64,000 nucleotides of DNA from Desulfitobacterium sp. (GCA_050251735.1 JBFWMF010000016.1:14054-78053); one strand, 5' to 3'. Positions 17,365 to 34,804 are shown, counted from the stretch's first letter. Made by a program: numbers and translations. Notes: generated by a model from the letters alone, not told the origin.

Positions 17365-20262
17365 TTGTTTCGGGTGAAACAGGACGGAAAAGAAGAAACT
17401 ATGGAAAAATTGATCATAGTAGCTATATCTAATTATTGGATGCGTATATCGGTGTTAGACCTACTGGAAAGCCAAGAACTCAAATACCTTTGTGCAGAAA
17501 GCCTACCTGATCTCAATACGTCAGCCGAAGGCTCGGCAGGGGTAATCGCTGTGGTAGACGCATTTTCTAATAAGGAAGATCTACAAGAAATGGTAGATCA
17601 GCTACAAGGGATGGCATCAGTACAAAGTGTGCTTCTTTTAGTTCCAGATGAAATTTTTCCTAATTTACCTCAATGGGGTGGGAGAGTCATACCTATCGGG
17701 TACGGGAAGATTCTGACGGAGATACTGCCTGTTTTAAAGGAAGAATTACTTCGCCCAAATCAACTACCGACTTTAAACACGAAGGAGGTAAATTTAATGG
17801 GAAATGAAAATGGCAACATTTTTGAGAGAAAGGTAGGCAGAAGAAGTTTCCTCAAAGGTTCAGCCGCGGCCGCAGTCGTTACTGGGGTAGCTATCGCGAA
17901 CCCTTGGGATACGGCAACTCAGGCCTTAGCGGTAGGTGAGAGTGCAAACCCTACTTCAGAAAGCAAGGAACTGTTGGTATCAAGTGCCTGTAGGTCAAAC
18001 TGCTTCCAGAGTTGTCGGTTAAATGCCCACGTGATTGATGGAAAAGTAGTTAAGACTACACCGGCTTCTTATCCGGATGAAATTTATACAGGATCTTGTT
18101 TGAAAGGGCTATCCCTCGTGCAAAGAACCTACAGCCCAACACGGATCAAACATCCCATGCGTCGAGTTGGCGAACGAGGCGAAGGTCAATGGGAAGTCAT
18201 TTCTTGGGACGAAGCAATTACTGAAATAGCCGATAAGTTTATGGCCATTCAAGAAAAATATGGCCCTAAATCACTGGCTCTTGATGTGGGTTCAGGAAAT
18301 TATGGTCTAGTTCATGGAGTATTAGGTATTTTTAATCGGCTCATCAATTCTATCGGGTGTACGAAAATCAATGTTTGCTATGACCAAGCGACAGGCCACG
18401 GCTCAGACCGGGTCATCGGCGGTAGTGTTTGGTTGTGGGGAAATGAGCCTCGCACCATGATGGACTCCAAAAACATTATCGTCTGGGGTTCTAACCCTGT
18501 ATACTCCCAACCCCAAAACTGGCGGATATTGAAAGAAGCAAAAAAAGGTGGCGCAAAAGTCATTACCATAGACCCCATCTTCTCAGCGACAGCCAATCAA
18601 TCCGATGAATATATTCCGGTGACTCCTGGAACAGATTTAATGCTAGTACTTGCTATGATCAATTATATTATCGAACAAGATTTAATGAATATTGACTTCA
18701 TGAAAAAGAGAAGTACAGCCACCTTCCTCGTCCGTAGAGATAACGGTTTAGTGTTGAGAAAAAGCGACTTTGCTCCTGAGACTCCGGACACCGAAGACGA
18801 CTTTTATGTATGGGATAGTGTCGCCAATGCGCCAGCCCTCCTAAAGGATGGCCCCCAAGATGTGGCTATCGAGGGAAACTTTAATGTTCAAGGAATAGAT
18901 GTGGACACTACCTTTACCCTCCTTAAGAATGAGATGAAGGAATACACCCTAGAAAAGGCCAGCGAGCTTACCAAAATACCCGTAGAAAAAATCATTGAAT
19001 TAACAAAAACCTATGTGGATGGACCGACTACTATCTATACCAATTATGGTATTGACCATTACCAAAACGGCCATTTGTGGTCCTTCGCGGTCTTTATCAT
19101 GGCGTCTCTTACCGGCAATATCGGCGTAAAGGGAGCAGGCTTCACAGGGCTATTTGTACAAAACATCCCCATTAATTACATCGGCATGTATATTACAAAC
19201 ATGAAAATGGCTGATGGAAACTCCATACCCCAAACGGAGTTTCATAAAGTAGTAAGAGATCAAGCCATCGAGGGTAAGCCTTATCCGATCAAGGCCTTAT
19301 ATACCACTTCTTCAAATTCGATGAGCAATTGGGCCCAACAGAATCTATGGTTAACGGATATTCTCCCCAACTTGGAATTCACAGTCGTCGTAGATACAGA
19401 GCTAACGGATACGGCAAGATATGCAGATATCGTATTACCAGCGGCTTTTTGGTTTGAAGTTAATGATCTCCGTGTCAACTATAATAATCCTTATATCTAT
19501 ATGCAAGAAAAAGCAATTGAACCTTTATATGAAAGTAAACCTGATGGAGAGATTATCGCCATGATTGCTCGGAAGATGGGCTTAGGCCAATTCTTCCCTG
19601 AGAATATGGATGATACCGAGTGGATCAAGGTCTTGTTAGATTCTGATAAGCTTCGTGCCATGGGTATTACTTATGAACGTTTATTGGAAGAAAAGGTTGT
19701 AAGGGGTACAGGTAGTGCAGAAAAACCTTATATCCGTGGCGAACAGTTTTTTAATACGCCAAGTGGTAGAGCCCAGCTTTATTGTGAGAATCCGCAACCT
19801 CGTGTTAATTATGGCCAAAATTTGACGGGTATCATCGAAAAAGAAAGAATGCCCTATTATAAACCTCCTGGCGAAGCATCAAAGGACAATCCTTTATTCT
19901 CCAAGTATCCTTTGGTTTTCATACAAGAACATTCCCGGTTCCGTTCGCATACCCAATGGTTTAACACCCCCATATTACGTGAGCTTGATCCGGAGCCCCT
20001 AGCCAAGATTAGCCGAGAAGACGCGAAAATCCGGGGAATTAAGACGGGGGATATCGTAGAAGTGTTTAATGATCGGGGCAAGGCGGTGCTCAAGGCTGAA
20101 GTCAACGACGCGATTAGTACAGGAGTTATATCTATCCCTAAAGGCTGGCAACGAGAACAATTTATCGAAGGTTGCTTCCAAGAATTGACCAACAGTACTT
20201 CAGATCCCATGGCCGTCAATTTTGCCTACTTTGATTGCCTGGTTGATGTGAAAAAAAGATAA
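17365..20262 (+). CDS. DMSO-reductase-family molybdopterin oxidoreductase catalytic subunit (Tat substrate), module 1
   Basis: Internal start: GAAGGAGG, 8 nt, ATG 17797, then GRRSFLKGSAAAA...ALA/VG. FS0 cysteines CRSNCFQSC...SCLKG (C-x3-C-x3-C-xn-C). MopB core of about 820 aa. Substrate unknown. Confidence 0.9.
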   Translation: MFRVKQDGKEETMEKLIIVAISNYWMRISVLDLLESQELKYLCAESLPDLNTSAEGSAGVIAVVDAFSNKEDLQEMVDQLQGMASVQSVLLLVPDEIFPNLPQWGGRVIPIGYGKILTEILPVLKEELLRPNQLPTLNTKEVNLMGNENGNIFERKVGRRSFLKGSAAAAVVTGVAIANPWDTATQALAVGESANPTSESKELLVSSACRSNCFQSCRLNAHVIDGKVVKTTPASYPDEIYTGSCLKGLSLVQRTYSPTRIKHPMRRVGERGEGQWEVISWDEAITEIADKFMAIQEKYGPKSLALDVGSGNYGLVHGVLGIFNRLINSIGCTKINVCYDQATGHGSDRVIGGSVWLWGNEPRTMMDSKNIIVWGSNPVYSQPQNWRILKEAKKGGAKVITIDPIFSATANQSDEYIPVTPGTDLMLVLAMINYIIEQDLMNIDFMKKRSTATFLVRRDNGLVLRKSDFAPETPDTEDDFYVWDSVANAPALLKDGPQDVAIEGNFNVQGIDVDTTFTLLKNEMKEYTLEKASELTKIPVEKIIELTKTYVDGPTTIYTNYGIDHYQNGHLWSFAVFIMASLTGNIGVKGAGFTGLFVQNIPINYIGMYITNMKMADGNSIPQTEFHKVVRDQAIEGKPYPIKALYTTSSNSMSNWAQQNLWLTDILPNLEFTVVVDTELTDTARYADIVLPAAFWFEVNDLRVNYNNPYIYMQEKAIEPLYESKPDGEIIAMIARKMGLGQFFPENMDDTEWIKVLLDSDKLRAMGITYERLLEEKVVRGTGSAEKPYIRGEQFFNTPSGRAQLYCENPQPRVNYGQNLTGIIEKERMPYYKPPGEASKDNPLFSKYPLVFIQEHSRFRSHTQWFNTPILRELDPEPLAKISREDAKIRGIKTGDIVEVFNDRGKAVLKAEVNDAISTGVISIPKGWQREQFIEGCFQELTNSTSDPMAVNFAYFDCLVDVKKR
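17374..17796 (+). other. Receiver-like N-terminal extension, in frame with molybdoenzyme 1
   Basis: AAGGAG at 17359-17364, then GTG 17374. Alternating beta/alpha pattern KLIIVAIS, GVIAVVDAF, SVLLLVP, RVIPIG. There is no stop before the Tat-signal ATG at 17797. Confidence 0.5.
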
Positions 20263-22257: not shown

Positions 22258-22404
22258 ATACCACTAGGAGGATGCCCAAAGGGGCTTTTTCTTTCGTAGT
22301 GAAAAACACGACAAGGCCTAGGTGCTGTCATGTTTTACCTGATAGAGCTTGCACCATTTTTGCGGTATACTAGAATAACCAAAGCACTTTCGGGAGGACT
22401 TTTT

Positions 22405-23532
22405 GTGTCTGAATCAAAGTTATTGTTTTCACTTCTCTTAAATTTAAGCAGTAAGATCGAAGAAATCGGAACAGAGAGGGCAAGGTTGGAGTTGCCGAAG
22501 CTGATTTGTACTCTTTTAGAGACCGATGGATGCGCACTATATTTTAGTAAATCCGATAGGGAGGGTCTTTTTCTAGCTAATCAATACTCTATTCCTCAGG
22601 GTCAGGTTTTTGCGGATACTTGGCCGGAAAATTGGTCGCCCATATCGGATAGTGCCGAATACCTAAATAACCATGAAATGGCTAAGGGCTTTGCCGAAGA
22701 TAATAGCTTTAAAATGTGTTTAATTCTGCCACTGCATATAGAGGGAAAGATTGCTGGAGTCGTCTTGATGGGTTGGAAGAGCTCCAGTTCACTGGAGGAG
22801 CTATCTCCAAAGGATCTGCAACTATTACAATCGATTTCTATGCTTTTATCCCATGTCTATTGCGTTTATCCTCTTATCAATAAATTAAGGCAGAGAGAAA
22901 CGAATTTAGCGACACTTTATCGGAAGGCTGAGGATGACCTGGAAACCAGCCGTAAGAAGGTGTCTCTTGAACTCCACGACGAAGTTGGACAGGTCTTGAC
23001 TTCAATTTTATTGCAGTTGAAGCTATTACAGCAGTCTGATGACCTAGAATACATGAAGGGGAGGCTTGGCGGCCTTCATCACATAACCTTAGAGACATTA
23101 GATGAAGTAAGGCGCATTTCCCAGAATCTCCGCCCTAATCTTTTAGAGAAGCTGGGTTTACAAGCAGCAGTAGAGGCCCATATCAAAGAATATAGAGAAA
23201 ATACAGGTATTGAAGTAGAGCTGCGAACCCATAACTTAAGCGAGCGTATAGCTGAAAATATAGAGACCATCACTTATCGTGCGGTTCAAGAAGGCTTGAC
23301 GAATGTGGCTCGCCACTCGGGTGCTAATAGGGTAATTATTAACCTGACTATCAAGGGAAATAATCTTTTCTTGCAGATCACCGATAATGGTAAAGGGTTC
23401 AAGAAAAACGACGTCCATGGGACAGGGCTCTTAGGTATGAGGGAGCGATCGACTAGGGTCGGTGGAAAGTTCTGGCTTGTTAACAAAGTAGACCAAGGCC
23501 TGACGATCAATATGTTATTACCTTTAGTGTAG
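22405..23532 (+). CDS. Cytoplasmic GAF-like / HisKA_3 sensor histidine kinase, module 2 (intact)
   Basis: ORF 22330-23532; likely start is GTG 22405 (GGAGGA 7 nt upstream). H-box LELHDEVGQ, N-box QEGLTNVARH, DNGKGF, GTGLLGMRER. No TM helices. Confidence 0.88.
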   Translation: MSESKLLFSLLLNLSSKIEEIGTERARLELPKLICTLLETDGCALYFSKSDREGLFLANQYSIPQGQVFADTWPENWSPISDSAEYLNNHEMAKGFAEDNSFKMCLILPLHIEGKIAGVVLMGWKSSSSLEELSPKDLQLLQSISMLLSHVYCVYPLINKLRQRETNLATLYRKAEDDLETSRKKVSLELHDEVGQVLTSILLQLKLLQQSDDLEYMKGRLGGLHHITLETLDEVRRISQNLRPNLLEKLGLQAAVEAHIKEYRENTGIEVELRTHNLSERIAENIETITYRAVQEGLTNVARHSGANRVIINLTIKGNNLFLQITDNGKGFKKNDVHGTGLLGMRERSTRVGGKFWLVNKVDQGLTINMLLPLV

Positions 23533-23545
23533 TTTGGAGGTCATC

Positions 23546-24220
23546 ATGAAAGAACAGACAAAAGTATTTCTGGTAGACGATCATAAGTTGCTACGGGATA
23601 CTTTAAGGATGTTTTTAGAAAACTGCAAAGAGATTGAGGTCGTAGGGGAGGCCGGCAATGGTGCCGATGCCGTTAAGGGGATATTGGATCTAAAACCCGA
23701 ATTAGTCTTAATGGATCTTACGTTGCCTGATTTTGATGGAGTAGAGGCGACAACCCAAATTATGCGTGCCTTGCCCAAAACCAAGGTTATCGCTGTAACC
23801 ATGCACCCGGAAAAGCTTTATTTGTTAAAATTTCTCGAAGCTGGTGGGGTAGGTTATGTTCACAAGTCAGCAGCTGATCGGGAGTTGTTGCAAGCGCTTG
23901 AGCGGGTTCAACAAGGAGAGGTTTTTCTAAGTCCGGAGGGTGTACAGGTCGTGGCCGGGCAGTTTAGAGTTCAAAACGCTCCATTGCCTGAGGAAGAAGA
24001 TATAAAAGGTATACCACCTGACATACTCTCCGCACGAGAGCGCCAAGTCCTTGGTTTGCTATCCCATGGCTATAGTTGTCGTGAGATAGGGAAAAGGCTT
24101 TTCTTATCGACGAGTACCATTGAAACCTATAAAAAACGGGTTAGCGATAAGCTTCATTTAGAAAACAGGAAGGATCTTGTGGAATATACCATCCGACACA
24201 AAATATTTGAAGAACTGTAA
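23546..24220 (+). CDS. NarL/LuxR-family response regulator, module 2
   Basis: ATG 23546 after GGAGGT. Has VDDH, LVLMDLTLPDFDG, AVTMH, HKSA and a LuxR HTH. Confidence 0.9.
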   Translation: MKEQTKVFLVDDHKLLRDTLRMFLENCKEIEVVGEAGNGADAVKGILDLKPELVLMDLTLPDFDGVEATTQIMRALPKTKVIAVTMHPEKLYLLKFLEAGGVGYVHKSAADRELLQALERVQQGEVFLSPEGVQVVAGQFRVQNAPLPEEEDIKGIPPDILSARERQVLGLLSHGYSCREIGKRLFLSTSTIETYKKRVSDKLHLENRKDLVEYTIRHKIFEEL

Positions 24221-24250
24221 AAACTGTCGTGAATTCCATGACAGTTTTAA
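24221..24250 (+). terminator. Hairpin directly after regulator 2 (possible partial terminator)
   Basis: AAACTGTC-gtgaattccat-GACAGTTTT. Confidence 0.45.
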
Positions 24251-24272: not shown

Positions 24273-24305
24273 CCGACAGACATTTTCTGTTTATTTCATT
24301 AAACT
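24273..24305 (+). promoter_or_regulatory. Module promoter box CCGACAGA-N19-TAAACT (upstream of molybdoenzyme 2)
   Basis: CCGACA at 24273-24278, 21 nt, TAAACT at 24300-24305. Confidence 0.5.
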
Positions 24306-24314
24306 AAAAACGAA

Positions 24315-27260
24315 TTGTATGCGCATACGATCGAAGGAGTTGTTTTTGTGAACGCGAAAAGCGGAGCAAGGGGAAGGGTGAAGGATCCCCAAGTTTTAGT
24401 CGCTGTCTCCAATGACTGGTTACAGCTTCCGATTATAGATATGCTTTCTGCACAGCGAGAAGGCTATATTCGAGTGAAATCTTTAGCGGAGCTTTATCAG
24501 CGGGTAAAAGAGTTTTCCAGGTGTATTGTGATTATTGATATCTTTACCTACGCTGAGCACCATCAGGATATTCTGAAGCGACTCTACGAAGAAAACCCTT
24601 GCCTGTCTATTATTCCTCTCGTTTCAAAGGATAAGCTGGCTTACGCTCAGTATCTAGACTCCAGTGCTTCTTGTTACAGTGTGGCCAAGGAGGATGTCGA
24701 TACGCAGCTTATGCCAGTGCTTGGTTGTGCCTATAAGGATCAGAGGTTAATAGCAGACGCTTATGCTTTGCTTCGGGAACAAAAACAATTGCCAACTTTA
24801 AACAAAAAGGAGGCAAATTTAATGAAAAAAGAAGATGGAAGCATTTTCGGGCGAAAGTTTGGGAGAAGAAGCTTTCTCAAAGGCTCGGCTGCAGCAGCTG
24901 CGGTAGCTGGCGTGGCTGTGGCTAGCCCTGGGAACACAGTAATGAAGGCATTGGCAGCGACTGGCAACACAACAACAATGGCCCCAGAAGAAAAGGTTTT
25001 CCCAGTTGTTTGCCGTGGTAACTGTGTTGGAACTTGTCAAATGAACGCACATGTGAGAAACGGAAAGCTTGTTAAAATGTCCAAGAGGGAAGCTGTAGAT
25101 CCTCGTTATACACGGATTTGTCAAAGGGGGCGTACTAATCCTCTGCGTGTTTATAGCCCCGAAAGGCTTAAATACCCGATGCGGCGGGTTGGCGAACGTG
25201 GAGAAGGTAAGTGGGAACAAATTTCATGGGACGAGGCTATTGACGAAATTTGCACCAAATGGAAAGGTTACCAAAAAGAACACGGCAAAGAAAGCATCTT
25301 TTTTGCTAGTGGCTCTGGTAATTATGGATCAGAGGTTAGAAACTATTCAACCCGTTTGGTGAATTTCATGGGTGCTTCTAGGATGAGTTCTGCCTTGGAT
25401 AGCGCGGTTGTTGTTTCAGCCGGGAGGGCTCTCGGTTACGGAGCGTATTTGGGAGCAAATTCTCCAACTGATTGGGTCAATTCAAACTATATCTTTGTAT
25501 GGGGCACTAACTTTACTCAAGCTTGGAATGCCAATTGGCACTTTTTGGCCGAAGCACAGAAGGCCGGGGCAAAAATGATTTGTATTGATCCGGTTTTTAA
25601 TATAGTAGCATCTAAATCTGATATGTTTGTGCCCATCAGACCATGTACGGATGCTCTTTTGGCGATGGCAATGACTCAAATCGTCATTGATGAAGGATTG
25701 GCCGACGAAAAATATTTAAAAAAATGTTCTGTTGCGCCGTTTATGGTCAAAGAAAGTGATGGGAGGTTCATGCGCCTGAGTGATTTGGGCAAAGCAACCG
25801 CCGGAACGGCTACAGACGCTATCGTAGTTAGAGGTGTCGACGGCAGTATTGGTGTGCCTGCAGATATCCCTGATCCTGTTTTACACGGAACTTTTACGAT
25901 CAATGATATTAAAGTTACCACTGCCTATGATTTACTGATTGAACGACTGACGCAATTCCCGCCCGATAACGCAGCCAAGGTATGCGATATTCCTTTAGAA
26001 ACAATCAAAAATATGGCACGGATGTTTGCAGAAGGACCCGCATGTATCGCGGGGGGCTATGGCCCCGACCACTATACGAACGGGCATCATGCCTACCAAG
26101 CTATGTATACCTTGTTGATGGTAACGGGGAATTTTGGAAAACCGGGCACCGGGCTGGCAGGGGGATTTAATTTTTCTTTGGGTCTTCATGGTCCTAGTAC
26201 AAATTCAATGGATAATCCGAAAAACCATTTGTCTTCAGCACCAAATGTCCCGTCTGTAAAGATGCTGGATGTAATAAAAACTGGAAAATATGGAGACATT
26301 TCTGTTACTCCTAAAAGCATGTTTGTGCAAGCTTTCAACGTGATTGGTAATCTTTGTGAGCGAAAAGCTTATCTAGAGGTATTCAACAAGTTAGACTTGG
26401 TGGTTGTGGCAGATATAACAATGTCCGAAACTGCAAGCTATGCCGACATTGTTCTCCCTGTGCCTCACTGGTTTGAAGTAGATAGCCTTGTTAACTTTGG
26501 TACGCAATTTGTAAGTATTTCGGATAAGGCTATTGAACCGCTCTATGAATGCAAGGGAGATTTTGAAATAATTAATTTATTAGGAGAGGGAATGGACCTT
26601 GGTTCTGAGTTTCCACTAACCAAAGAGGAATACTTTACAAGATCCTTCGAAAACGATTATTCCAAAAGTATTGGACTTAGCTATGAAAGGTTGAAGAAGG
26701 AAAAACAATTACCTACTTGGATTGGGGATTATATACACGGTGCCGGCGGAGTATATCCGACCACAACAGGCCGTGCTCAGTTTTATTTAGAAAATGTAGT
26801 TCCAAACTTCCGATATGGACAGGTAGTTAATTTGGATAATTCGAGACTACCATACTGGGAGCAACCCATTGAAGCTTGGCATGACTATGATTTGGCTAAA
26901 AAATACCCTCTGATTTTCACTTCTGAACGGGCGAGATTCCATTGCCATACCCAATTCGGCGATGTACAATGGTTCAAAGAATTAGAGCCTGAGCCATTTG
27001 TAAGAATTAGCCTTCAGGACGCAGCAACTAGGGGAATTAGTAATGGAGATACCGTCAAAGTATTTAATGACAGAGGGTATGTAGTAGTGAAAGCAGTCAT
27101 TCATAACGGGATCCGTCCGGGGATGCTGGTTATGCCCCATGCGTGGCAAAAGCATCATTTTATTGATGGCCATTATTCAGATTTAAGTTCTAGGGCAACA
27201 AATCCAGATGTAGCGAATAATGCCTTTTTCGATGCATTATGCGAAATACAGAAGATGTAA
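24315..27260 (+). CDS. DMSO-reductase-family molybdopterin oxidoreductase catalytic subunit (Tat substrate), module 2
   Basis: Internal start: AAGGAGG at 24807-24813, 8 nt, ATG 24822, then GRRSFLKGSAAAAAV...ALA/AT. FS0 cysteines CRGNCVGTC...ICQRG. Confidence 0.9.
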   Translation: MYAHTIEGVVFVNAKSGARGRVKDPQVLVAVSNDWLQLPIIDMLSAQREGYIRVKSLAELYQRVKEFSRCIVIIDIFTYAEHHQDILKRLYEENPCLSIIPLVSKDKLAYAQYLDSSASCYSVAKEDVDTQLMPVLGCAYKDQRLIADAYALLREQKQLPTLNKKEANLMKKEDGSIFGRKFGRRSFLKGSAAAAAVAGVAVASPGNTVMKALAATGNTTTMAPEEKVFPVVCRGNCVGTCQMNAHVRNGKLVKMSKREAVDPRYTRICQRGRTNPLRVYSPERLKYPMRRVGERGEGKWEQISWDEAIDEICTKWKGYQKEHGKESIFFASGSGNYGSEVRNYSTRLVNFMGASRMSSALDSAVVVSAGRALGYGAYLGANSPTDWVNSNYIFVWGTNFTQAWNANWHFLAEAQKAGAKMICIDPVFNIVASKSDMFVPIRPCTDALLAMAMTQIVIDEGLADEKYLKKCSVAPFMVKESDGRFMRLSDLGKATAGTATDAIVVRGVDGSIGVPADIPDPVLHGTFTINDIKVTTAYDLLIERLTQFPPDNAAKVCDIPLETIKNMARMFAEGPACIAGGYGPDHYTNGHHAYQAMYTLLMVTGNFGKPGTGLAGGFNFSLGLHGPSTNSMDNPKNHLSSAPNVPSVKMLDVIKTGKYGDISVTPKSMFVQAFNVIGNLCERKAYLEVFNKLDLVVVADITMSETASYADIVLPVPHWFEVDSLVNFGTQFVSISDKAIEPLYECKGDFEIINLLGEGMDLGSEFPLTKEEYFTRSFENDYSKSIGLSYERLKKEKQLPTWIGDYIHGAGGVYPTTTGRAQFYLENVVPNFRYGQVVNLDNSRLPYWEQPIEAWHDYDLAKKYPLIFTSERARFHCHTQFGDVQWFKELEPEPFVRISLQDAATRGISNGDTVKVFNDRGYVVVKAVIHNGIRPGMLVMPHAWQKHHFIDGHYSDLSSRATNPDVANNAFFDALCEIQKM
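24348..24821 (+). other. Receiver-like N-terminal extension, in frame with molybdoenzyme 2
   Basis: AAGGAG at 24334-24339, then GTG 24348. VLVAVSNDW, CIVIIDIFTY, SIIPLVSKD and CYSVAKED occupy the beta1, beta3(Asp), beta4(Ser) and beta5(Lys) positions. Confidence 0.55.
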
Positions 27261-27272
27261 GGAGGGAAAAAA

Positions 27273-27890
27273 ATGCGTTATGGTATGGCGATAGACTTAA
27301 AAACCTGTGTTGGATGCCACGCCTGCTCGGTGGCCTGTAAATCAGCAAATAACTTGCCAAATAATATGTGGTGGAACCGCATTTTGACAATCGGCGGAGA
27401 AGAAATGGATACTCCTAGCGGTACCTATCCTAATAATAAAATGCAGCATTTGCCTGTAAACTGCCAGCATTGTGATAATCCTCCTTGTGCTAAGGCTTGT
27501 CCGGTAGGTGCCACCTATAAGAGAGAAGAAGATGGGATAGTCATACAGGATTATGATAAATGTATTGGCTGCCGGATGTGCATGGTGGCCTGTCCCTACA
27601 ATGCCCGGAGCTTTAACTGGAAAAAACCTGAATATTATGTAGATTTTGCTCTTGGAGATTATGATGCGCCCGCTCATCAGTACAATGTGGTAGAAAAATG
27701 TACTTTCTGTGTGAATCGAATTGCTCGAGGAGAAGAGCCAGCCTGTATGGAACTTTGCATAGGTCGTGCCCGTTACTGGGGAGACTTAGATGACCCAAAC
27801 AGCGAAATAAGTCTTGCTATCAAAGGACGTAACTATGTCAAGCTTTTGGAAGAAAAGGGTACCAAACCCTCCATCTTCTACTTAATTTAA
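27273..27890 (+). CDS. 4x[4Fe-4S] electron-transfer subunit, module 2
   Basis: Same four Cys clusters as the module 1 copy. Confidence 0.92.
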   Translation: MRYGMAIDLKTCVGCHACSVACKSANNLPNNMWWNRILTIGGEEMDTPSGTYPNNKMQHLPVNCQHCDNPPCAKACPVGATYKREEDGIVIQDYDKCIGCRMCMVACPYNARSFNWKKPEYYVDFALGDYDAPAHQYNVVEKCTFCVNRIARGEEPACMELCIGRARYWGDLDDPNSEISLAIKGRNYVKLLEEKGTKPSIFYLI

Positions 27891-27906: not shown

Positions 27907-29100
27907 ATGAGTGAAAAAACAGAAAAACAGTTTTACACCAAACCCTTATTTATCCTCTTCGCCCTGCTGACACTAGTCGGCTTAGTCTGCTGGTATTTGC
28001 AACTTACCAAGGGCTTACAACTTACGAACCTGAATAATTTCGCCACCTGGGGTTTATATATCATCGGCTTCATGATCTTCACCGGTATCGCAGCAGGTTC
28101 CCTAGTCTTTGCTTCCTCAGCTTACCTCTTCAAAGGGATGGCTGAGTTCAAACCTCTCACCAGAATCGCAGCCTTCGTCGGAGCCATCGGCAGCGTTATA
28201 GCGGCCGGACTCTTCATCATCGTGGATATCGGTAACCCGGAGAGAGCATGGTATTTTATCACCAGCGGCAATATCTCTTCACCTATGTTCTGGGATAGCT
28301 TAATCCTTGGTGCTTATGTGGTCATCGGTATCTTCTTCACCCGGCAGCTGATGCTGGTCAACGAAGGGCAAAAAGAAGAAAAATCCCTTAAAGCTATTTC
28401 TATCATCGCCTTTATCGCTGGACTCATGGTCATGGTCACTTCTTTCGTCTTTGCACTACAAGTGGCACGCCCTATGTGGAATAATCCAGTAGAACCCGTA
28501 TCCTTCTTGGCCGCAGCTTTAGTAGCAACTTTCGCTTTGCTGATGATCATCTTTGCAGTCCTGAACAAGAGTGGCTACATCGAGATCAGCAGTGAACAAC
28601 TAGCTAAAATGGGCAAGCTGTCCGGAGTATTTCTCCTCTTTGAACTCTTCGTAGTATTAGGGGAAGCAGTCATCGGTCTATATGCAGGAGCAGGTGAAGA
28701 AGCGGAGGTTATCCATTGGATGGTACTTGGTGAAGGAGCACCCTTCTTCTGGGTACAAATCATCGCCATCGTCTTAGGTTTGGTACTCCTCTTCAACAAA
28801 AAAACAGGCACACTTGTCCTGGGCGCGGTGGTAGCTATCTTTGCCATCTTCATGATCAAATACAACCTCCTGCAAGCGCCCTTGCTTAATCCCTTACTCA
28901 CCTATGCAGGGCCTCCCGGGTATGGGGCAAGCGAAGGAGTATATCTACCATCTCTAATTGAGATTGGTGTATCTGTAGGTATCATCGCCATGGGTGGAAT
29001 GCTGGTTATTATTGGTTTAGATAAGCTGAACCTTGGCAAGAAGACCAAGAAAGCTGCAGGGAAAGGTCAAGCTCAAGGTAGTATAACTGCCAAGGCTTGA
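27907..29100 (+). CDS. NrfD/PsrC-type membrane anchor subunit, module 2
   Basis: 397 aa, nearly colinear with the module 1 and 3 copies. Confidence 0.85.
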   Translation: MSEKTEKQFYTKPLFILFALLTLVGLVCWYLQLTKGLQLTNLNNFATWGLYIIGFMIFTGIAAGSLVFASSAYLFKGMAEFKPLTRIAAFVGAIGSVIAAGLFIIVDIGNPERAWYFITSGNISSPMFWDSLILGAYVVIGIFFTRQLMLVNEGQKEEKSLKAISIIAFIAGLMVMVTSFVFALQVARPMWNNPVEPVSFLAAALVATFALLMIIFAVLNKSGYIEISSEQLAKMGKLSGVFLLFELFVVLGEAVIGLYAGAGEEAEVIHWMVLGEGAPFFWVQIIAIVLGLVLLFNKKTGTLVLGAVVAIFAIFMIKYNLLQAPLLNPLLTYAGPPGYGASEGVYLPSLIEIGVSVGIIAMGGMLVIIGLDKLNLGKKTKKAAGKGQAQGSITAKA

Positions 29101-29281: not shown

Positions 29282-29962
29282 ATGGAAAATACAATAGAAC
29301 AAAAAATACAAAAGGCTATCTCCACTTCGGATATGCATCAAATTTTGGCTATTGCTTTGCAACTACCTACTCAGGAGCTAGTTAAAGGAGTATTAAATGG
29401 AAGCCTGGCCGATGATATTTTGTCAATTTACCAAGAGCTCGATCTTCCTAACGAAACGATTGAGAACTTGGTAACAAAATTTGCTGAGCTTAAAAATAGC
29501 AAGATCACAAAAGAAGAACTTCTTACTGAGTTGAGACAAGAATATACCCGCTTGTTCACTCATCCTAAGAAGTCGGAAATCGAAATTTATGAGACCCTAT
29601 TCCGGTACGTTCCAGAAGAGGGAGAGGGTAAACCTTCTCTTTTCATAAGTCCGGCAGCCCTGGATGCGGAGCGTTGTTATAAAAAAGCTGGTCTGGTCAA
29701 ATCTAAGGATGTTAATGAGCCGGGAGATCATATGGCTACCGAGATGGAATTCATGATGTTTCTCTATCTGGAAATGGCCAAGGCTTTGCAAGGGGACAAT
29801 AAGGAGGAGGTTGCTCGCAGAGAAGCGGAGATCAAAGAATTTAATGAGCTGCATCTGCAGAGATGGGCTAAGTTTTTCTTTGAGAAAATGGCGACCGTAA
29901 GCCATAGTGCTTTCTATAGAATCATTGGCGAAATTGGTAGTGAACGGTATAAAGGGAATTGA
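29282..29962 (+). CDS. TorD/DmsD-family redox-enzyme maturation chaperone
   Basis: 226 aa with the motifs EYTRLF and GDHMATEMEFMMFL. Confidence 0.8.
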   Translation: MENTIEQKIQKAISTSDMHQILAIALQLPTQELVKGVLNGSLADDILSIYQELDLPNETIENLVTKFAELKNSKITKEELLTELRQEYTRLFTHPKKSEIEIYETLFRYVPEEGEGKPSLFISPAALDAERCYKKAGLVKSKDVNEPGDHMATEMEFMMFLYLEMAKALQGDNKEEVARREAEIKEFNELHLQRWAKFFFEKMATVSHSAFYRIIGEIGSERYKGN

Positions 29963-29968
29963 GATAGA

Positions 29969-31267
29969 GTGTTAAAACAAAGATCGGTAAACAAAATCAT
30001 CATGGTCCTAGCAATCTTACTGCTTTTCCTGGCAGGAATTTATCAACACTTTGCTAATCAGCAGGATGTTCTAGGTACTTTACAGCAAGGAGAATCTAAT
30101 ACAGTCAGATTCGAAAGCATTGAGGGAGATTATCCAAGTTATAAACTTTGGGATATCCAGGATGAATTTCTAGGATACGGTGTGATTGCTGATGCCTCCG
30201 GGTATGGAGGCAAGCTTACGATGCTAAGCATTGTCGATGAATTAGGAACGATAAAGAGCGTAGCCCTGATTGAAGACTATGAAACGCCCTTATATTTGAA
30301 TAAGGTAGTACAAGCAGGTTTATTTGAAGAACTTAAGGGGAGAAACCTTCAAGATACTTTTACTGACCTAGATGGCGTTACTGGGGCAACCGTTACCGTA
30401 GATGCAATCTTTGCTGCGGTTCAAAAGGGTACAATCCAGATTGGTAATGGTCAGCTGGGTATGAAACTTCCGTATAACACTACCTTAAATGTAATTTGGC
30501 AGGATGTAGTTGCTGTTGTTTTACTAGTTGCTGCAGTAGTTAGTTCATTTTTTAATATGAAGAGGCTGCGGCCGTGGCTGCTGGTTCTAGCGGTAATCTT
30601 TATTGGATTTATCATGAATTACTCGTTGACCTATAGTAACTTCGTGAGTATTTTAACGGGTAATCTGCCCGTATTTATTGAACGGCCTATCTGGTATGTT
30701 ATGGTCTTAGGCATTTTACTTATTACCTTGATTTTAGGAAGAAATGTATACTGTAATTGGTTCTGTCCTTTTGGAGCTGCTCAAGAGGGGATTTATAAGA
30801 GCTTAAATTTGTACTCTTTTTCGCCTTCGGGGGAACTGAGGAGAAAAGTAAGTAGAGCCCGCTGGCCCATGCTGTGGTTGGTCGCCATTATTGCTTTGGT
30901 TTTCAATAATCCTGGCATAGCCAGTTATGAACCTTTTGCGGTTTTTTTCGATGGAAGTGGGAATAGAGCTCAATGGATAATAATGCTTATTGTATTACTC
31001 CTGTCCATGGCTCAGCTGCGCTTTTGGTGTCATAATTTCTGTCCTGTGGGAGCAATTCTAAACTTTACTGCACGGATCAAAGGGAAATTCAAAAAGTTAA
31101 AGCAGGATAACCAAGCAGAAGATTATCCAGTTAATATAGACTGTGAGGTTTGTGCAGGTAAAAGTAAGGAGATGAATAGACAGGATAAGTTTTATATTAT
31201 CGTTGTTGCAGTGGTTAACATTCTTGTGATAGTATCCTTATTAGAGAGTATCGGTTTAATCGGGTAA
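29969..31267 (+). CDS. FMN-binding, CX3CP-motif polytopic membrane protein (NosR/NirI/NapH/RdhC-PceC-like)
   Basis: GTG start and an N-terminal TM helix. FMN_bind-like segment GYGGKLTML...LDGVTGATVTVDA. Then at least 5 TM helices carrying CNWFCPFGA and CHNFCPVGA. Confidence 0.75.
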   Translation: MLKQRSVNKIIMVLAILLLFLAGIYQHFANQQDVLGTLQQGESNTVRFESIEGDYPSYKLWDIQDEFLGYGVIADASGYGGKLTMLSIVDELGTIKSVALIEDYETPLYLNKVVQAGLFEELKGRNLQDTFTDLDGVTGATVTVDAIFAAVQKGTIQIGNGQLGMKLPYNTTLNVIWQDVVAVVLLVAAVVSSFFNMKRLRPWLLVLAVIFIGFIMNYSLTYSNFVSILTGNLPVFIERPIWYVMVLGILLITLILGRNVYCNWFCPFGAAQEGIYKSLNLYSFSPSGELRRKVSRARWPMLWLVAIIALVFNNPGIASYEPFAVFFDGSGNRAQWIIMLIVLLLSMAQLRFWCHNFCPVGAILNFTARIKGKFKKLKQDNQAEDYPVNIDCEVCAGKSKEMNRQDKFYIIVVAVVNILVIVSLLESIGLIG

Positions 31268-31286
31268 CCATAATTGAATGAAGGAA

Positions 31287-31355
31287 AACCCTTTCTATAG
31301 AATCATTGGTGAGATGGGTAGTGCATTTGTTGCTGAAAACTTAGGCGATTGCTGA
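31287..31355 (+). pseudogene. Orphan duplicate of the TorD-like gene 3' end
   Basis: 31291-31324 matches 29910-29943 (about 31 of 34 nt). It reads NPFYRIIGEMGSAFVAENLGDC-stop, against SAFYRIIGEIGSERYKGN-stop in the intact gene. Confidence 0.6.
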
Positions 31356-31381
31356 TTTAATTCAGAGAATAGGGGGATAAT

Positions 31382-32539
31382 ATGATATTCAATCAAGGTT
31401 ACTCAATCAAGATTGCTGAGAATAGGTGCCTGAACCAACGACACAGTGATGTGGAATGTAACCATTGTTCGAGGAATTGTCCTTCCAACGCGATTATTAA
31501 TCATAATAACGGAGTTCTGCTGGATGCAGAACGCTGTAGTGGTTGCGGGGTATGTTTAAGCGACTGCCCCACCCAAGTTTTTAGCTCTTCTAAATGGGAT
31601 GAAACCACCATAGTCCAAGATGTGTTGGAGGAAGGGTGGACAACAACTGAGTTTTTTTGCGGGATACATCCTTCACCTTTTAAAAAGGAAAAAAGCAAGA
31701 CTCGTGGGGCTGTCCAAATGCCAGCCTGCCTGAGTGCCATTTCCAAAGGAGCTTGGTACGAACTTGGGCTGAGTACAGAAGTCTATTTGCATGTGGAAGT
31801 ATGTGAAGATTGTCCCATGAAAAACGCCATGGAACGTCTGAAATATAATACTAGCGTAGCTTCTGAATGGTTGGAAGCTTCAGGACACCCGGCAGAAATC
31901 AGCACCATCTACGAAAGCCAAACCGGAAATACAAAAAGAAGTTTAAGGGCCCTCGAGTCTGGTTTAAAAGCAACGTCTAGACGGGACTTTTTCTTAGGTT
32001 TAGTCGGAAAGGGGAAACCGAAACTAGAAGGGACCCCCGATCGTAGCCAATCTTTTTCTCATGATCTTAACCTCCAACGTGTAGATAGCCTATTAGCAGA
32101 TTGGCAGAAGAGATTGTCGAAAGTCTATTCTGAAAATATGGTCGAAGGCTATGGACTCCCAGCCTATTGGCCAACGATAAAGAAGAGCAAGGACTGTGTC
32201 AACTGCGGTATGTGTGCTGCCGTTTGCCCATCGAAAACCTTGCAGATTGTCATCGATGGTGACAGTTGTACACACTATTTTACCAGTGGACTATGCATAG
32301 ACTGTCGTGTTTGCCAGCTGTTCTGCCCGAGAGAGGCCATCAGTAGAGATCGAGAAAAAGTTGAAAAGCCTTTTGAAGTAACACGTTTGTTCACGATTTC
32401 TGGTATAAATTGTGAACGTTGTGGTTTTAGCACATTCGCCAACTCAGATAACCTATGCTACTGGTGCAAAGAGGAAGTCAACATCGATAACGACTTCAAA
32501 GAGGCCTGCCGTAAGATATTTCTTAATACGAAGAATTGA
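31382..32539 (+). CDS. Cytoplasmic poly-ferredoxin-like 4Fe-4S protein with C-terminal Cys ribbon
   Basis: CNHCSRNCP, CSGCGVCLSDCP, CVNCGMCAAVCP, CIDCRVCQLFCP, plus CERCGF...LCYWCK. No signal peptide or TM helix. Confidence 0.8.
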   Translation: MIFNQGYSIKIAENRCLNQRHSDVECNHCSRNCPSNAIINHNNGVLLDAERCSGCGVCLSDCPTQVFSSSKWDETTIVQDVLEEGWTTTEFFCGIHPSPFKKEKSKTRGAVQMPACLSAISKGAWYELGLSTEVYLHVEVCEDCPMKNAMERLKYNTSVASEWLEASGHPAEISTIYESQTGNTKRSLRALESGLKATSRRDFFLGLVGKGKPKLEGTPDRSQSFSHDLNLQRVDSLLADWQKRLSKVYSENMVEGYGLPAYWPTIKKSKDCVNCGMCAAVCPSKTLQIVIDGDSCTHYFTSGLCIDCRVCQLFCPREAISRDREKVEKPFEVTRLFTISGINCERCGFSTFANSDNLCYWCKEEVNIDNDFKEACRKIFLNTKN

Positions 32540-32754: not shown

Positions 32755-33549
32755 TTGATAGAAAACCAACAATTATCCGAATTATTAATGATAATGACGG
32801 CTGAAGTAAAGAACCCGAATAAAGCTAAAAGAATAACTGAACTCGCCTTAGATGTCCAGGCAGAAATCAAACGATTGCAATTACGGGAAGTCACTTTAGA
32901 GAAAATCTGCAAACAAGCTATCGACGAACTTGAAAACAATAAGAAGCAGCTTTCCCGAGAATTGCATGATCAGCTGGGACAAGCCATGACCTCGATTCTG
33001 TTGCAATTAAAGTTGTTGCAGAGGGAGCAGGATGTTGAGGTGATCCATGACCGCGTTGGTGGTTTGCGCTACCTTACTCAGCAGACCATTGAAGATGTGC
33101 GAAATTTATCGATGAATCTGCGACCAGCTGTCCTGGAAAATCTGGGTTTGGTGGCGGCCTTGGATTGGTACATAGAGGATTATCAACGCTATTCGGAGAT
33201 TGAAGTGGATTTTTGTAGTCCCCAGCTTAAGATGAGATTCCCCAATGCGATAGAAATTGTTGTCTATAGAGCAGTACAAGAAAGCCTAACCAACGTGGCA
33301 CGTCATGCTGAGGCGTCACGAGTTTCCGTTACCTTACAGGTGACTGAGAACTGTCTCCAACTGCAAGTGGCGGATAATGGTAAAGGAATGAATTCTCAAG
33401 ATATCCATCGGGGCTTAGGTTTGTTAGGTATGGAGGAACGGGTAAAAATGGCTAAAGGGGAATTTTCCTTAGAAAGCCAACAAGGGCTAGGAACCACCGT
33501 TATGATTACCCTACCTCTGACTACAGGAGGAAGTGTCAATGAAGAATAA
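32755..33549 (+). CDS. Short HisKA_3 histidine kinase without a sensor domain, module 3
   Basis: TTG 32755 after GGAGGA. 264 aa: a coiled-coil-like leader followed directly by the H-box RELHDQLGQ, QESLTNVARH, DNGKGM and GLGLLGMEER. Confidence 0.85.
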   Translation: MIENQQLSELLMIMTAEVKNPNKAKRITELALDVQAEIKRLQLREVTLEKICKQAIDELENNKKQLSRELHDQLGQAMTSILLQLKLLQREQDVEVIHDRVGGLRYLTQQTIEDVRNLSMNLRPAVLENLGLVAALDWYIEDYQRYSEIEVDFCSPQLKMRFPNAIEIVVYRAVQESLTNVARHAEASRVSVTLQVTENCLQLQVADNGKGMNSQDIHRGLGLLGMEERVKMAKGEFSLESQQGLGTTVMITLPLTTGGSVNEE

Positions 33550-34297: not shown

Positions 34298-34804
34298 TTG
34301 TGCGAACAAGTGCAAAAGGGGCTGTTTTGGTTGGAAAAATGGAGCAATATTAGCGAGAACGAGGTGAAATCGCACACGGTTGTAGTGGCAATTCCTCATC
34401 GTTGGCTAAGGCAGGTAGTTGAAAGGATTTTTGTTTCTGCTCAGGTAGACTGCGTCTGCGTAGAAAATATCGAAGAACTGTATCAATCAATGGATGGAAA
34501 TACAGCGCTGACAATTGTCGATGTCTTTTCTTATTCCCAATATTATCGTGATATTTTCACCCAGCTGAAGCAACGAAATTCTGGTGTGCCTATTGTTGCC
34601 TTGGTGTCCGCAAGTAACACGGAGTATCAACATGAGTTAACAACTGCGGGGGCTAGCGCGATAGTGATTAAGGAAAACGCCGATGAGGAATTAATACCTG
34701 CTCTGGTTCAGGTGCTACGAGATCGGGAGTTCAATGATGCTGTGGCTCGATTACTAGAAAACCAAAAACAGTTTATCACTCTATTCAAAGAGGAGGTACA
34801 TCTA
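34298..34804 (+). other. Receiver-like N-terminal extension, in frame with molybdoenzyme 3
   Basis: Start is TTG 34298 or TTG 34331. VVVAIPHRW, LTIVDVFSY, PIVALVSAS and SAIVIKEN give a full CheY-like beta/alpha pattern with Asp, Ser and Lys landmarks but no acidic pair. Confidence 0.55.

What the first reader, a model, noticed from the sequence alone, without database searches (positions are those of the whole stretch)
24315..24900. Module 2: same in-frame receiver-like extension, with better preserved receiver landmarks
AAGGAG (24334-24339) then GTG 24348 opens about 158 codons that run without a stop into AAGGAGG (24807-24813), 8 nt, ATG 24822. This is followed by MKKEDGSIFGRKFGRRSFLKGSAAAAAV...ALA/AT. 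The extension shows VLVAVSNDW (beta1, no DD pair), CIVIIDIFTY (Asp at the phospho-acceptor position), SIIPLVSKD (Ser at the T/S position) and CYSVAKED (Lys). The junction DNA is nearly identical to module 1 (CAAYTRCCRACTTTAAACA..AAGGAGG.AAATTTAATG). That conservation suggests the SD, the ATG and the peptide QLPTLN.KE.NLM are constrained together.
Basis: seen in the sequence. Interest (0 to 1): 0.7.

Follow-up and report, generated by a model that had tools for sequence, protein, structure and literature searches.

The report
Pseudo-receiver domain fused before Tat signal
A respiratory molybdenum-enzyme gene of Desulfitobacterium carries, in the same reading frame ahead of its export signal, a conserved CheY-like "pseudo-receiver" domain with its own start codon; one gene therefore probably makes a normal exported enzyme and a rarer long form that appears to belong to the neighbouring two-component regulator, an arrangement I could not find described.

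Summary
AAGGAG (24334-24339) and GTG 24348 open 158 stop-free codons that run in frame into AAGGAGG (24807-24813), 8 nt, ATG 24822. A twin-arginine (Tat) signal and a Mo-bisMGD oxidoreductase follow.

- **Real domain.** The extension is coding DNA under purifying selection. It folds as a (beta-alpha)5 receiver (AF2 pLDDT 86; Foldseek and PDB profile hits are receiver domains). The phospho-acceptor Asp is invariant in 37 homologues, Ser and Lys are mostly kept, and the acidic Mg2+ pair is replaced by Pro-Asn.
- **Two starts.** At least 37 homologues (Desulfitobacterium, Dehalobacter, Syntrophomonas, Bacillota MAGs) keep the frame open. The internal site keeps an SD plus a start codon: ATG, or TTG in 6/6 Leu cases with DNA. 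The upstream start is GTG/TTG in 13 of 14 genes.
- **Belongs with the regulator.** Every locus with upstream sequence has a NarL-type response regulator gene directly upstream. Extension divergence tracks that regulator (Mantel r=0.77, P=5e-5), not the fused enzyme core (r=0.02).

Best reading: one gene, two isoforms, with the long form acting as an enzyme-tethered pseudo-receiver that couples to the adjacent two-component system. The mechanism is inferred, not shown. I found no description in the literature searched.

The parts
22330..23532 (+). Module 2 histidine kinase, soluble (GAF + HisKA_3 + HATPase_c)
   Evidence: Pfam. It has no convincing transmembrane segment.
23534..24220 (+). Module 2 NarL/LuxR-type response regulator (Response_reg + GerE)
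   Evidence: Pfam. An orthologous RR gene ends about 100-150 nt upstream of the extension in every locus with upstream sequence.
24221..24249 (+). Inverted repeat after the RR stop (AAACTGTCGTG-AATTC-CATGACAGTTT): a terminator-like hairpin and/or a regulator site
   Evidence: Read from the sequence. Similar repeats occur in homologous loci. The tool's terminator scan did not call it.
24277..24305 (+). Promoter-like element: CAGACA (-35-like), 17 nt, TAAACT (-10-like)
   Evidence: Conserved in position across 13 loci. It matches only 8/12 consensus bases and falls below the scan threshold, so it is inferred.
24317..24328 (+). 12-bp palindrome GTATGCGCATAC in the presumed 5' UTR
   Evidence: Conserved in module-2-type loci. 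Other module types have a different palindrome at the same place. Function unknown.
24334..24339 (+). SD1 (AAGGAG) for the long form
   Evidence: AAGGAG(T/C)TGTTTT..GTG/TTG is conserved at the DNA level in 13 loci.
24348..24350 (+). Start 1 (GTG) of the long isoform (970 aa)
   Evidence: Public gene callers used this start (P0001 and L001). Start 1 is GTG or TTG in 13 of 14 genes, and the one exception has an in-frame TTG 15 nt upstream of its ATG.
24390..24788 (+). Pseudo-receiver domain (residues 15-147): (beta-alpha)5 core plus a long alpha5 helix (residues 114-147)
   Evidence: AF2 pLDDT 86, pTM 0.80. Foldseek top hits are receiver domains. PDB profile hits include RpfC, NtrC1, EvgA and RcsB receivers. 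pN is far below pS.
24537..24539 (+). Codon of Asp64, the phospho-acceptor position
   Evidence: Invariant in 37/37 homologues.
24789..24821 (+). Linker/junction (QKQLPTLNKKEANL) containing SD2
   Evidence: Conserved as peptide and as DNA. AF2 gives pLDDT below 50 from residue 151, consistent with a flexible tether.
24807..24813 (+). SD2 (AAGGAGG) inside the open reading frame
   Evidence: A GGAGG-type SD is present in all 14 genes for which DNA was obtained.
24822..24824 (+). Start 2 (ATG) of the short isoform (812 aa Tat precursor)
   Evidence: Residues in this alignment column across 37 long forms: M 24, L 9, V 3, N 1. All 6 Leu cases with DNA are TTG.
24822..24956 (+). Tat signal peptide (GRRSFLKGS, h-region, ALA/A cleavage motif)
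   Evidence: Pfam TAT_signal hit. Long and short forms are indistinguishable in h-region hydrophobicity and cleavage motif.
24957..27260 (+). Mature Mo-bisMGD catalytic subunit (Fe4S4, Molybdopterin and Molydop_binding domains) plus stop codon
   Evidence: Pfam. PDB sequence matches are DMSO-reductase-family enzymes.
27273..27890 (+). Four-cluster ferredoxin subunit (DmsB/PsrB-like)
   Evidence: Pfam.
27907..29100 (+). NrfD/PsrC-like membrane anchor
   Evidence: Pfam.
29282..29962 (+). TorD/NarJ-family maturation chaperone (Nitrate_red_del)
   Evidence: Pfam. The same gene is present in L002, L003, L004, L007, L009 and L013.
17374..17796 (+). Paralogous extension of module 1
34331..34804 (+). 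Paralogous extension of module 3 (Pfam Response_reg E=1.4e-5, below the family cut-off)

Best explanation
One gene carries two in-frame translation starts and probably makes two proteins.

Start 2 (strong SD AAGGAGG, 8 nt, ATG 24822) gives an ordinary Tat precursor. This is the catalytic subunit of a DmsABC/PsrABC-like, catechol-dehydroxylase-related Mo-bisMGD complex. It is exported, cleaved after ALA, and works with the ferredoxin and NrfD subunits encoded downstream.

Start 1 (AAGGAG, 8 nt, weak GTG 24348) gives a minor long isoform. In it a folded ~135-residue pseudo-receiver sits on a flexible tether in front of the Tat signal. The pseudo-receiver has the CheY fold and an invariant Asp, with Ser and Lys mostly kept, but the Mg2+-binding acidic pair is replaced by Pro-Asn.

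The pseudo-receiver belongs, in evolutionary terms, to the soluble NarL-type two-component system encoded directly upstream. It most likely acts on that kinase or regulator by protein-protein contact rather than by being phosphorylated. Synthesis, maturation or export of the enzyme would then feed back on transcription of its own operon.

Shown here: the coding status, the fold, the landmark residues, both conserved start sites, the permanent absence of a stop codon, the synteny with the two-component system, and the co-variation with the RR. Inferred: that both isoforms are actually made, that the domain contacts the kinase or RR, and the direction of the feedback.
For: - **Coding and selection.** Mononucleotide shuffles stay open in at most 2/20000 trials. 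pN is far below pS in the extension (for example 0.22 vs 0.52 against L011; omega 0.1-0.3).
- **Fold.** AF2 gives pLDDT 86 and pTM 0.80. Foldseek hits are 3kcn, DctD, NtrC1 and FixJ receivers, TM about 0.7. A profile of the family hits RpfC, NtrC1, EvgA and RcsB receivers in the PDB at E=1e-6 to 1e-3. PF00072 matches 8 of 37 members.
- **Landmark residues.** D64 37/37, S93 26/37, K114 29/37; Pro (28/37) and Asn/His (30/37) sit at the DD positions.
- **Start 2.** An SD plus ATG/TTG is present in all 14 genes with DNA. Leu is TTG in 6/6 cases (TTG is 22% of Leu codons in the cores, P about 1e-4).
- **Start 1.** AAGGAG + TTGTTTTT + GTG/TTG is conserved at the DNA level, directly downstream of a conserved promoter-like element.
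- **No stop.** No stop codon separates the two parts in any of the 37+ long forms.
- **Link to the two-component system.** The RR gene lies immediately upstream in all 13 loci that have upstream sequence. A close short-form relative (L013, core 49% identical) has neither an extension nor a two-component system, and carries a divergent CRP/FNR-like gene instead.
- **Co-variation.** Pairwise identity of the extension correlates with that of the RR (Pearson 0.77, Mantel P=5e-5) and not with the fused core (0.02, P=0.37).
- **Kinases.** The module kinases are soluble, and the module 3 kinase has no sensor domain.
- **Chaperone role already filled.** A separate TorD-type chaperone is encoded nearby.
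- **Independent domain.** In a model of extension plus signal, the receiver stays confident while the linker and signal are flexible.
Against: - No expression, proteomic or ribosome-profiling data were available, so the existence of the long isoform is inferred from sequence conservation only.
- Co-variation of the extension with the RR could reflect physical linkage plus recombination at the conserved junction, rather than interaction.
- If the pseudo-receiver only needed to meet the kinase or RR, a stop codon before SD2 should be tolerated. Its universal absence says the tether itself matters, which this explanation accommodates but does not explain mechanistically.
- Module 2's own extension does not reach any Pfam threshold.
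- No interaction prediction could be run.
Confidence: 0.5

Rival explanations
1. Cis-acting export or maturation device. The N-terminal domain holds back or docks the precursor (for cofactor loading, partner-subunit binding or Tat proofreading). It stays on the cytoplasmic face during hairpin insertion of the signal. It has no dialogue with the two-component system.
For: The domain is always covalently joined to the Tat signal, with no stop in 37+ homologues. Tat signals insert as hairpins with the twin arginines at the cytoplasmic face of TatC, and internal Tat signals exist in actinobacterial Rieske proteins (PMC7317946). The tether is flexible.
Against: A dedicated TorD/NarJ-type chaperone is already encoded in the cluster. 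Close relatives manage without the domain (L013; the Eggerthellaceae short forms). The domain diverges with the RR, not with the enzyme it would service. A conserved internal start that removes the device from most molecules is hard to reconcile with an essential maturation role.
Confidence: 0.15
2. Only the long protein is made. The Tat signal works internally, the receiver-like domain remains a cytoplasmic, membrane-tethered N-terminal domain (or a cleaved stub), and the internal SD-like sequence is a pause site or a relic.
For: Public gene callers choose the long ORF. Start 1 and SD1 are conserved. A small hairpin can sequester SD2 in 12 of 14 single-sequence folds.
Against: The start-codon identity at the internal site is maintained (M/L/V in 36 of 37; TTG in 6/6 Leu cases). 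The SD-to-start spacing is canonical. Start 1 is almost always a weak codon, whereas start 2 is mostly ATG. Covariation support for the hairpin is not significant.
Confidence: 0.12
3. A genuine phospho-accepting receiver. The extension is phosphorylated by the module kinase on Asp64 and acts as a phosphate sink or a second output competing with the NarL-type regulator.
For: Asp64 is invariant, and the Ser and Lys are largely conserved. The kinase and RR are adjacent.
Against: The two acidic residues that bind Mg2+ are replaced by Pro-Asn/His in most members. From established receiver-domain biochemistry, these residues are required for phosphotransfer. Most members fail Pfam PF00072 (29 of 37).
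Confidence: 0.1
4. A non-functional relic. A former separate receiver gene lost its stop and is carried along, or the stretch is merely a translated leader that affects downstream initiation.
For: In the +1 frame the junction reads TAATG or TGATG (a stop-start overlap) in modules 1-3 and in L003. This could be a trace of a formerly separate gene.
Against: There is strong purifying selection. A confidently predicted fold emerges from the family alignment. The Asp is invariant. The extension is often more conserved than the catalytic core (59% vs 39% against L008). It persists across genera.
Confidence: 0.04

Closest known systems
Tat-exported Mo-bisMGD respiratory enzymes with ferredoxin and NrfD subunits (DmsABC, PsrABC/PhsABC), including the Eggerthella/Gordonibacter catechol dehydroxylase class (eLife 2020, PMC7028382)
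   Same: The short isoform has the standard domain set (Fe4S4, Molybdopterin, Molydop_binding), a cleavable Tat signal, a four-cluster ferredoxin, an NrfD anchor and a TorD-type chaperone. The nearest short relatives are Eggerthellaceae enzymes at about 41-44% identity. The paper lists Desulfitobacterium among organisms with putative dehydroxylases.
   Different: None of the described enzymes has a folded domain in front of the Tat signal or a second upstream start. The paper makes no mention of a receiver domain. The substrate of the module 2 enzyme is unknown.
Pseudo-receiver domains (KaiA N-terminal domain, CikA PsR, AmiR N-terminal domain, aspartate-less receivers; named from my own knowledge)
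   Same: CheY-like fold used for protein-protein regulation without canonical phosphorylation chemistry. Weak Pfam hits to KaiA_N and AmiR_N appear in single family members.
   Different: Here the Asp, Ser/Thr and Lys are retained and only the metal-binding acidic pair is lost. The domain is fused to a secretion signal and an enzyme rather than to an output domain.
Single-domain response regulators and connectors that modulate kinases (DivK, phosphate-sink CheY paralogues; from my own knowledge)
   Same: A receiver-fold module that could bind a kinase DHp domain or a partner receiver, encoded next to its two-component system.
   Different: Those proteins are free-standing and phosphorylatable. 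This one is translated as part of a Tat precursor and lacks the Mg2+ site.
Bacterial genes with in-frame internal starts giving two isoforms (CheA-L/CheA-S, IF2 alpha/beta, ClpB; from my own knowledge)
   Same: Two SD-plus-start sites in one frame, with the long form carrying an extra N-terminal regulatory domain.
   Different: In this case the internal start also creates the N-terminal position of an export signal, so the two isoforms should differ in how they are handled by the Tat system.
Non-N-terminal Tat signals of actinobacterial Rieske proteins (PMC7317946)
   Same: A Tat signal that is preceded by other polypeptide and is still used.
   Different: In Rieske proteins the preceding part consists of Sec-inserted transmembrane helices and the signal is an uncleaved anchor. 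Here it would be a soluble folded cytoplasmic domain ahead of a cleavable signal.

Membership tests
CheY-like receiver (REC) superfamily, Pfam PF00072 | (beta-alpha)5 flavodoxin-like fold | tested here: met
   AF2 model with pLDDT 86 and secondary structure E-H-E-H-E-H-E-H-E-H. Foldseek top hits are receiver domains with TM about 0.7.
CheY-like receiver (REC) superfamily, Pfam PF00072 | Sequence match to the family model above the curated cut-off | tested here: not met
   The module 2 extension gives no Pfam hit. Module 3 scores 25.6 bits, below the 30.2 cut-off. Eight of 37 relatives match at E<0.01. The family profile does hit solved receivers at E=1e-6.
Phosphorylatable receiver domain | Phospho-acceptor Asp at the end of beta3 | tested here: met
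   D64 is invariant in 37/37.
Phosphorylatable receiver domain | Acidic pair after beta1 that binds Mg2+ | tested here: not met
   The positions hold Ser-Asn in module 2. Across the family they hold Pro in 28/37 and Asn or His in 30/37.
Phosphorylatable receiver domain | Conserved Thr/Ser (beta4) and Lys (beta5) | tested here: met
   S93 in 26/37 and K114 in 29/37; both are present in module 2.
Phosphorylatable receiver domain | Phosphotransfer from a cognate kinase | not testable with these tools
   Needs an in vitro assay with HK2.
Tat (twin-arginine) substrates | S/T-R-R-x-F-L-K motif, moderately hydrophobic h-region, AxA cleavage site | tested here: met
   GRRSFLKGSAAAAAVAGVAVASPGNTVMKALA/A. 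Pfam TAT_signal hit at 20.5 bits, below the 22.7-bit cut-off. The features are the same as in short-form relatives.
Tat (twin-arginine) substrates | Signal at the N-terminus of the precursor | tested here: inconclusive
   Met for the product of start 2. Not met for the product of start 1, where 158 residues precede it.
DMSO reductase family Mo-bisMGD enzymes | Fe4S4, Molybdopterin and Molydop_binding domains | tested here: met
   Pfam E=1.7e-7, 2.5e-47 and 4.4e-22. PDB matches include perchlorate reductase-type, ethylbenzene dehydrogenase and polysulfide/thiosulfate reductase.
Catechol dehydroxylase class (Eggerthella Dadh/Hcdh type) | Demonstrated catechol dehydroxylation, or clade membership in the published tree | not tested
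   The only evidence is that the nearest short relatives come from Eggerthellaceae/Gordonibacter, plus the paper's statement about Desulfitobacterium.
Dual-start (two-isoform) genes | Two conserved in-frame SD-plus-start sites | tested here: met
   SD1+GTG/TTG and SD2+ATG/TTG are conserved in 13-14 genes.
Dual-start (two-isoform) genes | Both products detected | not testable with these tools
   Needs proteomics or initiation-site ribosome profiling.

The most novel reading that the evidence does not exclude
The pseudo-receiver tethered to the Tat signal is the third component of a new kind of three-component system. Because it is made only as part of the enzyme precursor and stays on the cytoplasmic side of the translocon, it would report the synthesis, maturation or export state of the respiratory enzyme to a soluble NarL-type kinase/regulator pair. 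Regulatory cassettes (TCS + promoter + pseudo-receiver + signal) would be exchangeable between enzyme cores.
Probability: 0.35. Interest if true: 0.8.

Novelty: new variant of a known kind. Interest (0 to 1): 0.66.

Why it matters
Desulfitobacterium and its relatives carry dozens of paralogous molybdoenzymes of unknown substrate (53-57 in D. hafniense, PMC3306737). How each one is regulated is unknown.

A receiver-fold domain written into the precursor itself, ahead of the export signal, would be a new way of wiring an exported enzyme to a two-component system. It would also be a natural example of a folded cytoplasmic domain preceding a cleavable Tat signal.

In practice it affects annotation. 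Gene callers disagree between the ~970-aa and ~810-aa models. It also gives a simple, testable genetic system: two starts, one frame.

Tried and rejected
**Searches and scans that led nowhere**
- Extension-only queries with the search for homologous proteins found nothing, either as a 3-sequence profile or as a single sequence. The full-length query did find P0001, which contains the extension exactly. I treat this as a limitation of the word index, not as absence.
- Exact look-ups of the short and the TTG-started long products, and of P0002 and P0045, were not on record.
- The genome and metagenome scans with the extension alignment yielded only two loci each. The first attempt failed because the alignment was too diverse.

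**Ideas rejected**
- A Moco riboswitch or other known RNA in the leader or junction: no Rfam match.
- A conserved SD2-sequestering hairpin: seen in 12 of 14 single-sequence folds. RNAalifold and pair counting give no significant covariation (78.9% of cells paired vs 77.8% in shuffles). Left open.
- Programmed frameshifting at the junction: the C-AAA-AAG heptamer in module 2 is not conserved in modules 1 or 3.
- Recent duplication of the neighbouring RR's receiver as the origin: hhalign gives only 13% identity over the C-terminal half, E=7e-6.
- A more hydrophobic, anchor-like signal in the long forms: no difference from the short forms.

**Weak or negative results**
- The consensus promoter/terminator scan did not call the conserved upstream elements.
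- Literature searches found no description of this architecture.
Full report
**What is there**

The window comes from a Desulfitobacterium genome. The long product of module 2 is 100% identical to a protein of a Desulfitobacterium sp. MAG and 87% identical to D. hafniense AT727_19800. The window holds three tandem paralogous modules. Each module has the same gene order:
- a soluble HisKA_3 histidine kinase;
- a NarL/LuxR-type response regulator (RR);
- a ~965-982-codon ORF;
- a four-cluster ferredoxin;
- an NrfD-type membrane anchor.

A TorD/NarJ-type chaperone gene follows module 2.

AAGGAG lies at 24334-24339 and GTG at 24348. Then come 158 codons with no stop, AAGGAGG at 24807-24813, an 8-nt spacer and ATG at 24822. 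The sequence continues MKKEDGSIFGRKFGRRSFLKGSAAAAAV...ALA/AT, followed by the Fe4S4, Molybdopterin and Molydop_binding domains.

**It is not chance and not a relic**

Mononucleotide shuffles of the three extensions stay open in 0-2 of 20000 trials. The other five frames carry 4-14 stops.

A full-length search found about 40 proteins of 946-1008 aa that cover 98-100% of the query. They come from Desulfitobacterium hafniense, D. dehalogenans, strain PCE1, several Dehalobacter, Syntrophomonas curvata and Bacillota MAGs. A few have a precomputed PF00072 hit. In all of them the Tat motif sits about 150-185 residues from the N-terminus.

An exhaustive HMMER search of 1.84 billion cluster representatives with the extension profile gave these results:
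- about a dozen fused clusters (at 50% identity);
- a few small stand-alone proteins with the same PHxWLRE-type motif;
- beyond those, only generic receiver domains.

Codon-level comparison of 14 genes for which I obtained DNA shows pN well below pS in the extension (0.20-0.35 vs 0.52-0.80; omega 0.1-0.3 where dS is not saturated).

**It is a receiver fold with an incomplete active site**

With a 37-sequence alignment, AlphaFold2 gives pLDDT 86 and pTM 0.80. The model is a (beta-alpha)5 domain with a long alpha5 helix, residues 114-147. Foldseek against the PDB returns receiver domains: 3kcn, DctD, NtrC1, FixJ and PorX, with TM about 0.6-0.7. The family profile hits RpfC, NtrC1, EvgA, RcsB and other receivers by sequence at E=1e-6 to 1e-3.

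The landmark residues across the family:

| Position (module 2 numbering) | Role | Conservation |
|---|---|---|
| Asp64 | phospho-acceptor | 37/37 |
| Ser93 | T/S position | 26/37 |
| Lys114 | conserved Lys | 29/37 |
| Residue 21 | first of the acidic pair | Pro in 28/37 |
| Residue 22 | second of the acidic pair | Asn 22, His 8, Asp 3 of 37 |

Module 2 itself has Ser-Asn at the acidic-pair positions. By established receiver biochemistry this makes classical Mg2+-dependent phosphorylation unlikely, so "pseudo-receiver" is the accurate label.

Module 2's own sequence fails Pfam. Module 3 scores just below the cut-off, and 8 of 37 relatives match.

In a model that includes the signal peptide, the domain stays confident while residues 151-221 fall below pLDDT 50. 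That indicates a flexible tether with no packing of the signal onto the domain.

**Two conserved start sites, never a stop**

At the junction, all 14 genes with DNA have a GGAGG-type SD followed 6-9 nt later by a start codon in frame. Across 37 long forms the residue at that column is M 24, L 9, V 3, N 1. In the six Leu cases for which I have DNA the codon is TTG every time. TTG makes up 22% of Leu codons in the cores, so P is about 1e-4. This is strong evidence that the site is used for initiation.

At the 5' end, AAGGAG + (T/C)TGTTTT(T/G)(G) + GTG/TTG is conserved at the DNA level, even where upstream reading frames differ. It sits just downstream of a conserved CAGACA-17 nt-TAAACT element and a small palindrome. 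Start 1 is GTG or TTG in 13 of 14 genes. The exception has an in-frame TTG 15 nt upstream of its ATG.

The promoter is inferred from conservation only, because the consensus scan did not call it. The weak upstream start and strong internal start predict a minor long product and a major short product.

**The extension travels with the regulator, not with the enzyme**

Every locus with upstream sequence has a NarL-type RR gene ending about 100-150 nt before start 1, and usually a kinase gene before that.

A close relative of the enzyme (L013, core 49% identical) is a genuine short form. It has AT-rich non-coding DNA upstream, no two-component system and a divergent CRP/FNR-like gene. Two further short-form enzymes in a D. 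hafniense contig likewise lack their own kinase/RR pair.

Over 66 pairs of 12 loci, the correlations of pairwise identity were:
- extension vs RR: Pearson 0.77, Mantel P=5e-5, similar for the receiver and HTH halves of the RR;
- extension vs fused catalytic core: r=0.02, P=0.37.

In several pairs the extension is more conserved than the core (59% vs 39% against L008; 58% vs 40% against L002).

So the evolutionary unit is kinase-RR-promoter-pseudo-receiver(-signal), and it has been recombined with different enzyme cores. Linkage alone could produce this pattern. Either way, it places the domain in the regulatory module.

**How it most likely works**

The short product is a conventional Tat precursor. 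Its signal is indistinguishable from those of short-form relatives in hydrophobicity and ALA/A motif.

The long product carries the pseudo-receiver on a flexible tether ahead of that signal. Tat signals dock with their twin arginines at the cytoplasmic face of TatC and insert as hairpins, and non-N-terminal Tat signals are used in actinobacterial Rieske proteins (PMC7317946). The domain would therefore remain cytoplasmic whether the long form is exported, stalled or cleaved.

Four observations together point to a regulatory coupling device:
- the universal absence of a stop codon;
- the co-variation with the RR;
- the soluble kinases, one of them without any sensor domain;
- the separately encoded chaperone.

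I think the domain most likely contacts the cognate kinase or RR without being phosphorylated, and makes operon transcription sensitive to the fate of the precursor. This last step is inference. Confidence in the layers: about 0.95 for a real pseudo-receiver domain, about 0.75 for dual initiation, about 0.5 for coupling to the two-component system, and low for any specific direction of feedback.

**Rivals**

- *Cis-acting maturation or export device.* Disfavoured by the separate chaperone, by the short-form relatives, and by the lack of co-divergence with the core.
- *Only the long form is made.* Disfavoured by the preserved start-codon identity at the internal site.
- *Genuine phosphate sink.* Disfavoured by the missing acidic pair.
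- *Relic.* Excluded in practice by the purifying selection and the conserved fold.

A small hairpin that pairs SD2 with the LPTL codons appears in 12 of 14 single-sequence folds. It lacks significant covariation. It may tune the isoform ratio and may partly explain the conserved QLPTL peptide.

**Comparison with what is known, and novelty**

The enzyme part is an ordinary member of the DMSO-reductase family, and its nearest short relatives are in the Eggerthellaceae. The paper describing catechol dehydroxylases lists Desulfitobacterium among the organisms with putative members, but does not mention a receiver domain. The D. hafniense genome paper notes 53 molybdoenzymes without describing this feature.

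Pseudo-receivers, dual-start genes and internal Tat signals are each known. I found no description of their combination in five literature searches of the available library. That library lacks most subscription journals. Databases show the architecture only as automatic domain hits or odd names.

I therefore rate this a new variant of known kinds, of fairly high interest, with a more novel reading (a precursor-tethered third component of a two-component system) still open.

Noticed in passing
window 62251-62339 (+): A c-di-GMP-I riboswitch aptamer scoring 75.9 bits (E=4e-13), well above the Rfam gathering score. It lies just downstream of the 60171-62228 ORF and is unrelated to the finding.
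   Followed up: no
window 24317-24328; L008, L011, L002, L003, L009, L010, L004 at the same relative place: There is a palindrome between the promoter-like element and SD1. It differs by module type but stays palindromic: GTATGCGCATAC in module-2 type, and TTGTGC-N6-GCACAA or TTGTG-N6-CACAA in module-3 type. It could be an RNA hairpin or a module-specific operator.
   Followed up: partly
window 24277-24305 and homologous loci: A conserved GACAGACA motif and a TAAACT/TACAAT hexamer lie 17 nt apart, directly upstream of the long ORF. The ATGACAG motif also forms the right arm of the inverted repeat after the RR stop (24221-24249). These are candidate regulator boxes. The consensus scan did not call them.
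   Followed up: partly
window 24817-24824, 17792-17799, 34800-34807; L003 junction: Read in the +1 frame, the junction is TAATG or TGATG, a classical stop-start overlap. This may be a trace of a formerly separate receiver gene. It is not universal (L002 has CATATG).
   Followed up: partly
window 24319-24351: A 10-codon out-of-frame mini-ORF (ATG 24319, MRIRSKELFL, TGA 24349-24351) overlaps start 1 as GTGA. In some homologues the same ATG is in frame and gene callers used it (P0009, P0011, P0012).
   Followed up: no
window 15411-16514 and 32755-33549: The module 1 kinase matches only HisKA_3, with no HATPase_c hit. The module 3 kinase (264 aa) has no sensor domain at all. All three kinases lack transmembrane segments.
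   Followed up: partly
L005 10001-15494 (D. hafniense LOCK01000015.1): Here a long-form gene (P0031, with a PF00072 hit) is followed directly by a second, short-form molybdoenzyme gene (816 aa) before the ferredoxin gene. One regulatory cassette may therefore serve two catalytic subunits.
   Followed up: no
P0123, P0126, P0127, P0128, P0136, P0137: These are small stand-alone proteins (126-202 aa) with the same PHxWLRE-type pseudo-receiver motif and no Tat signal or enzyme. They could be the free-standing relatives of the fused domain. Their genomic context could not be looked up.
   Followed up: no
window 29969-32539: After the chaperone gene come an FMN_bind/Fer4_5 membrane protein (NosR/RdhC-like) and a 385-aa poly-ferredoxin. 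The same pair follows the cluster in L004, L007, L009 and L013.
   Followed up: no
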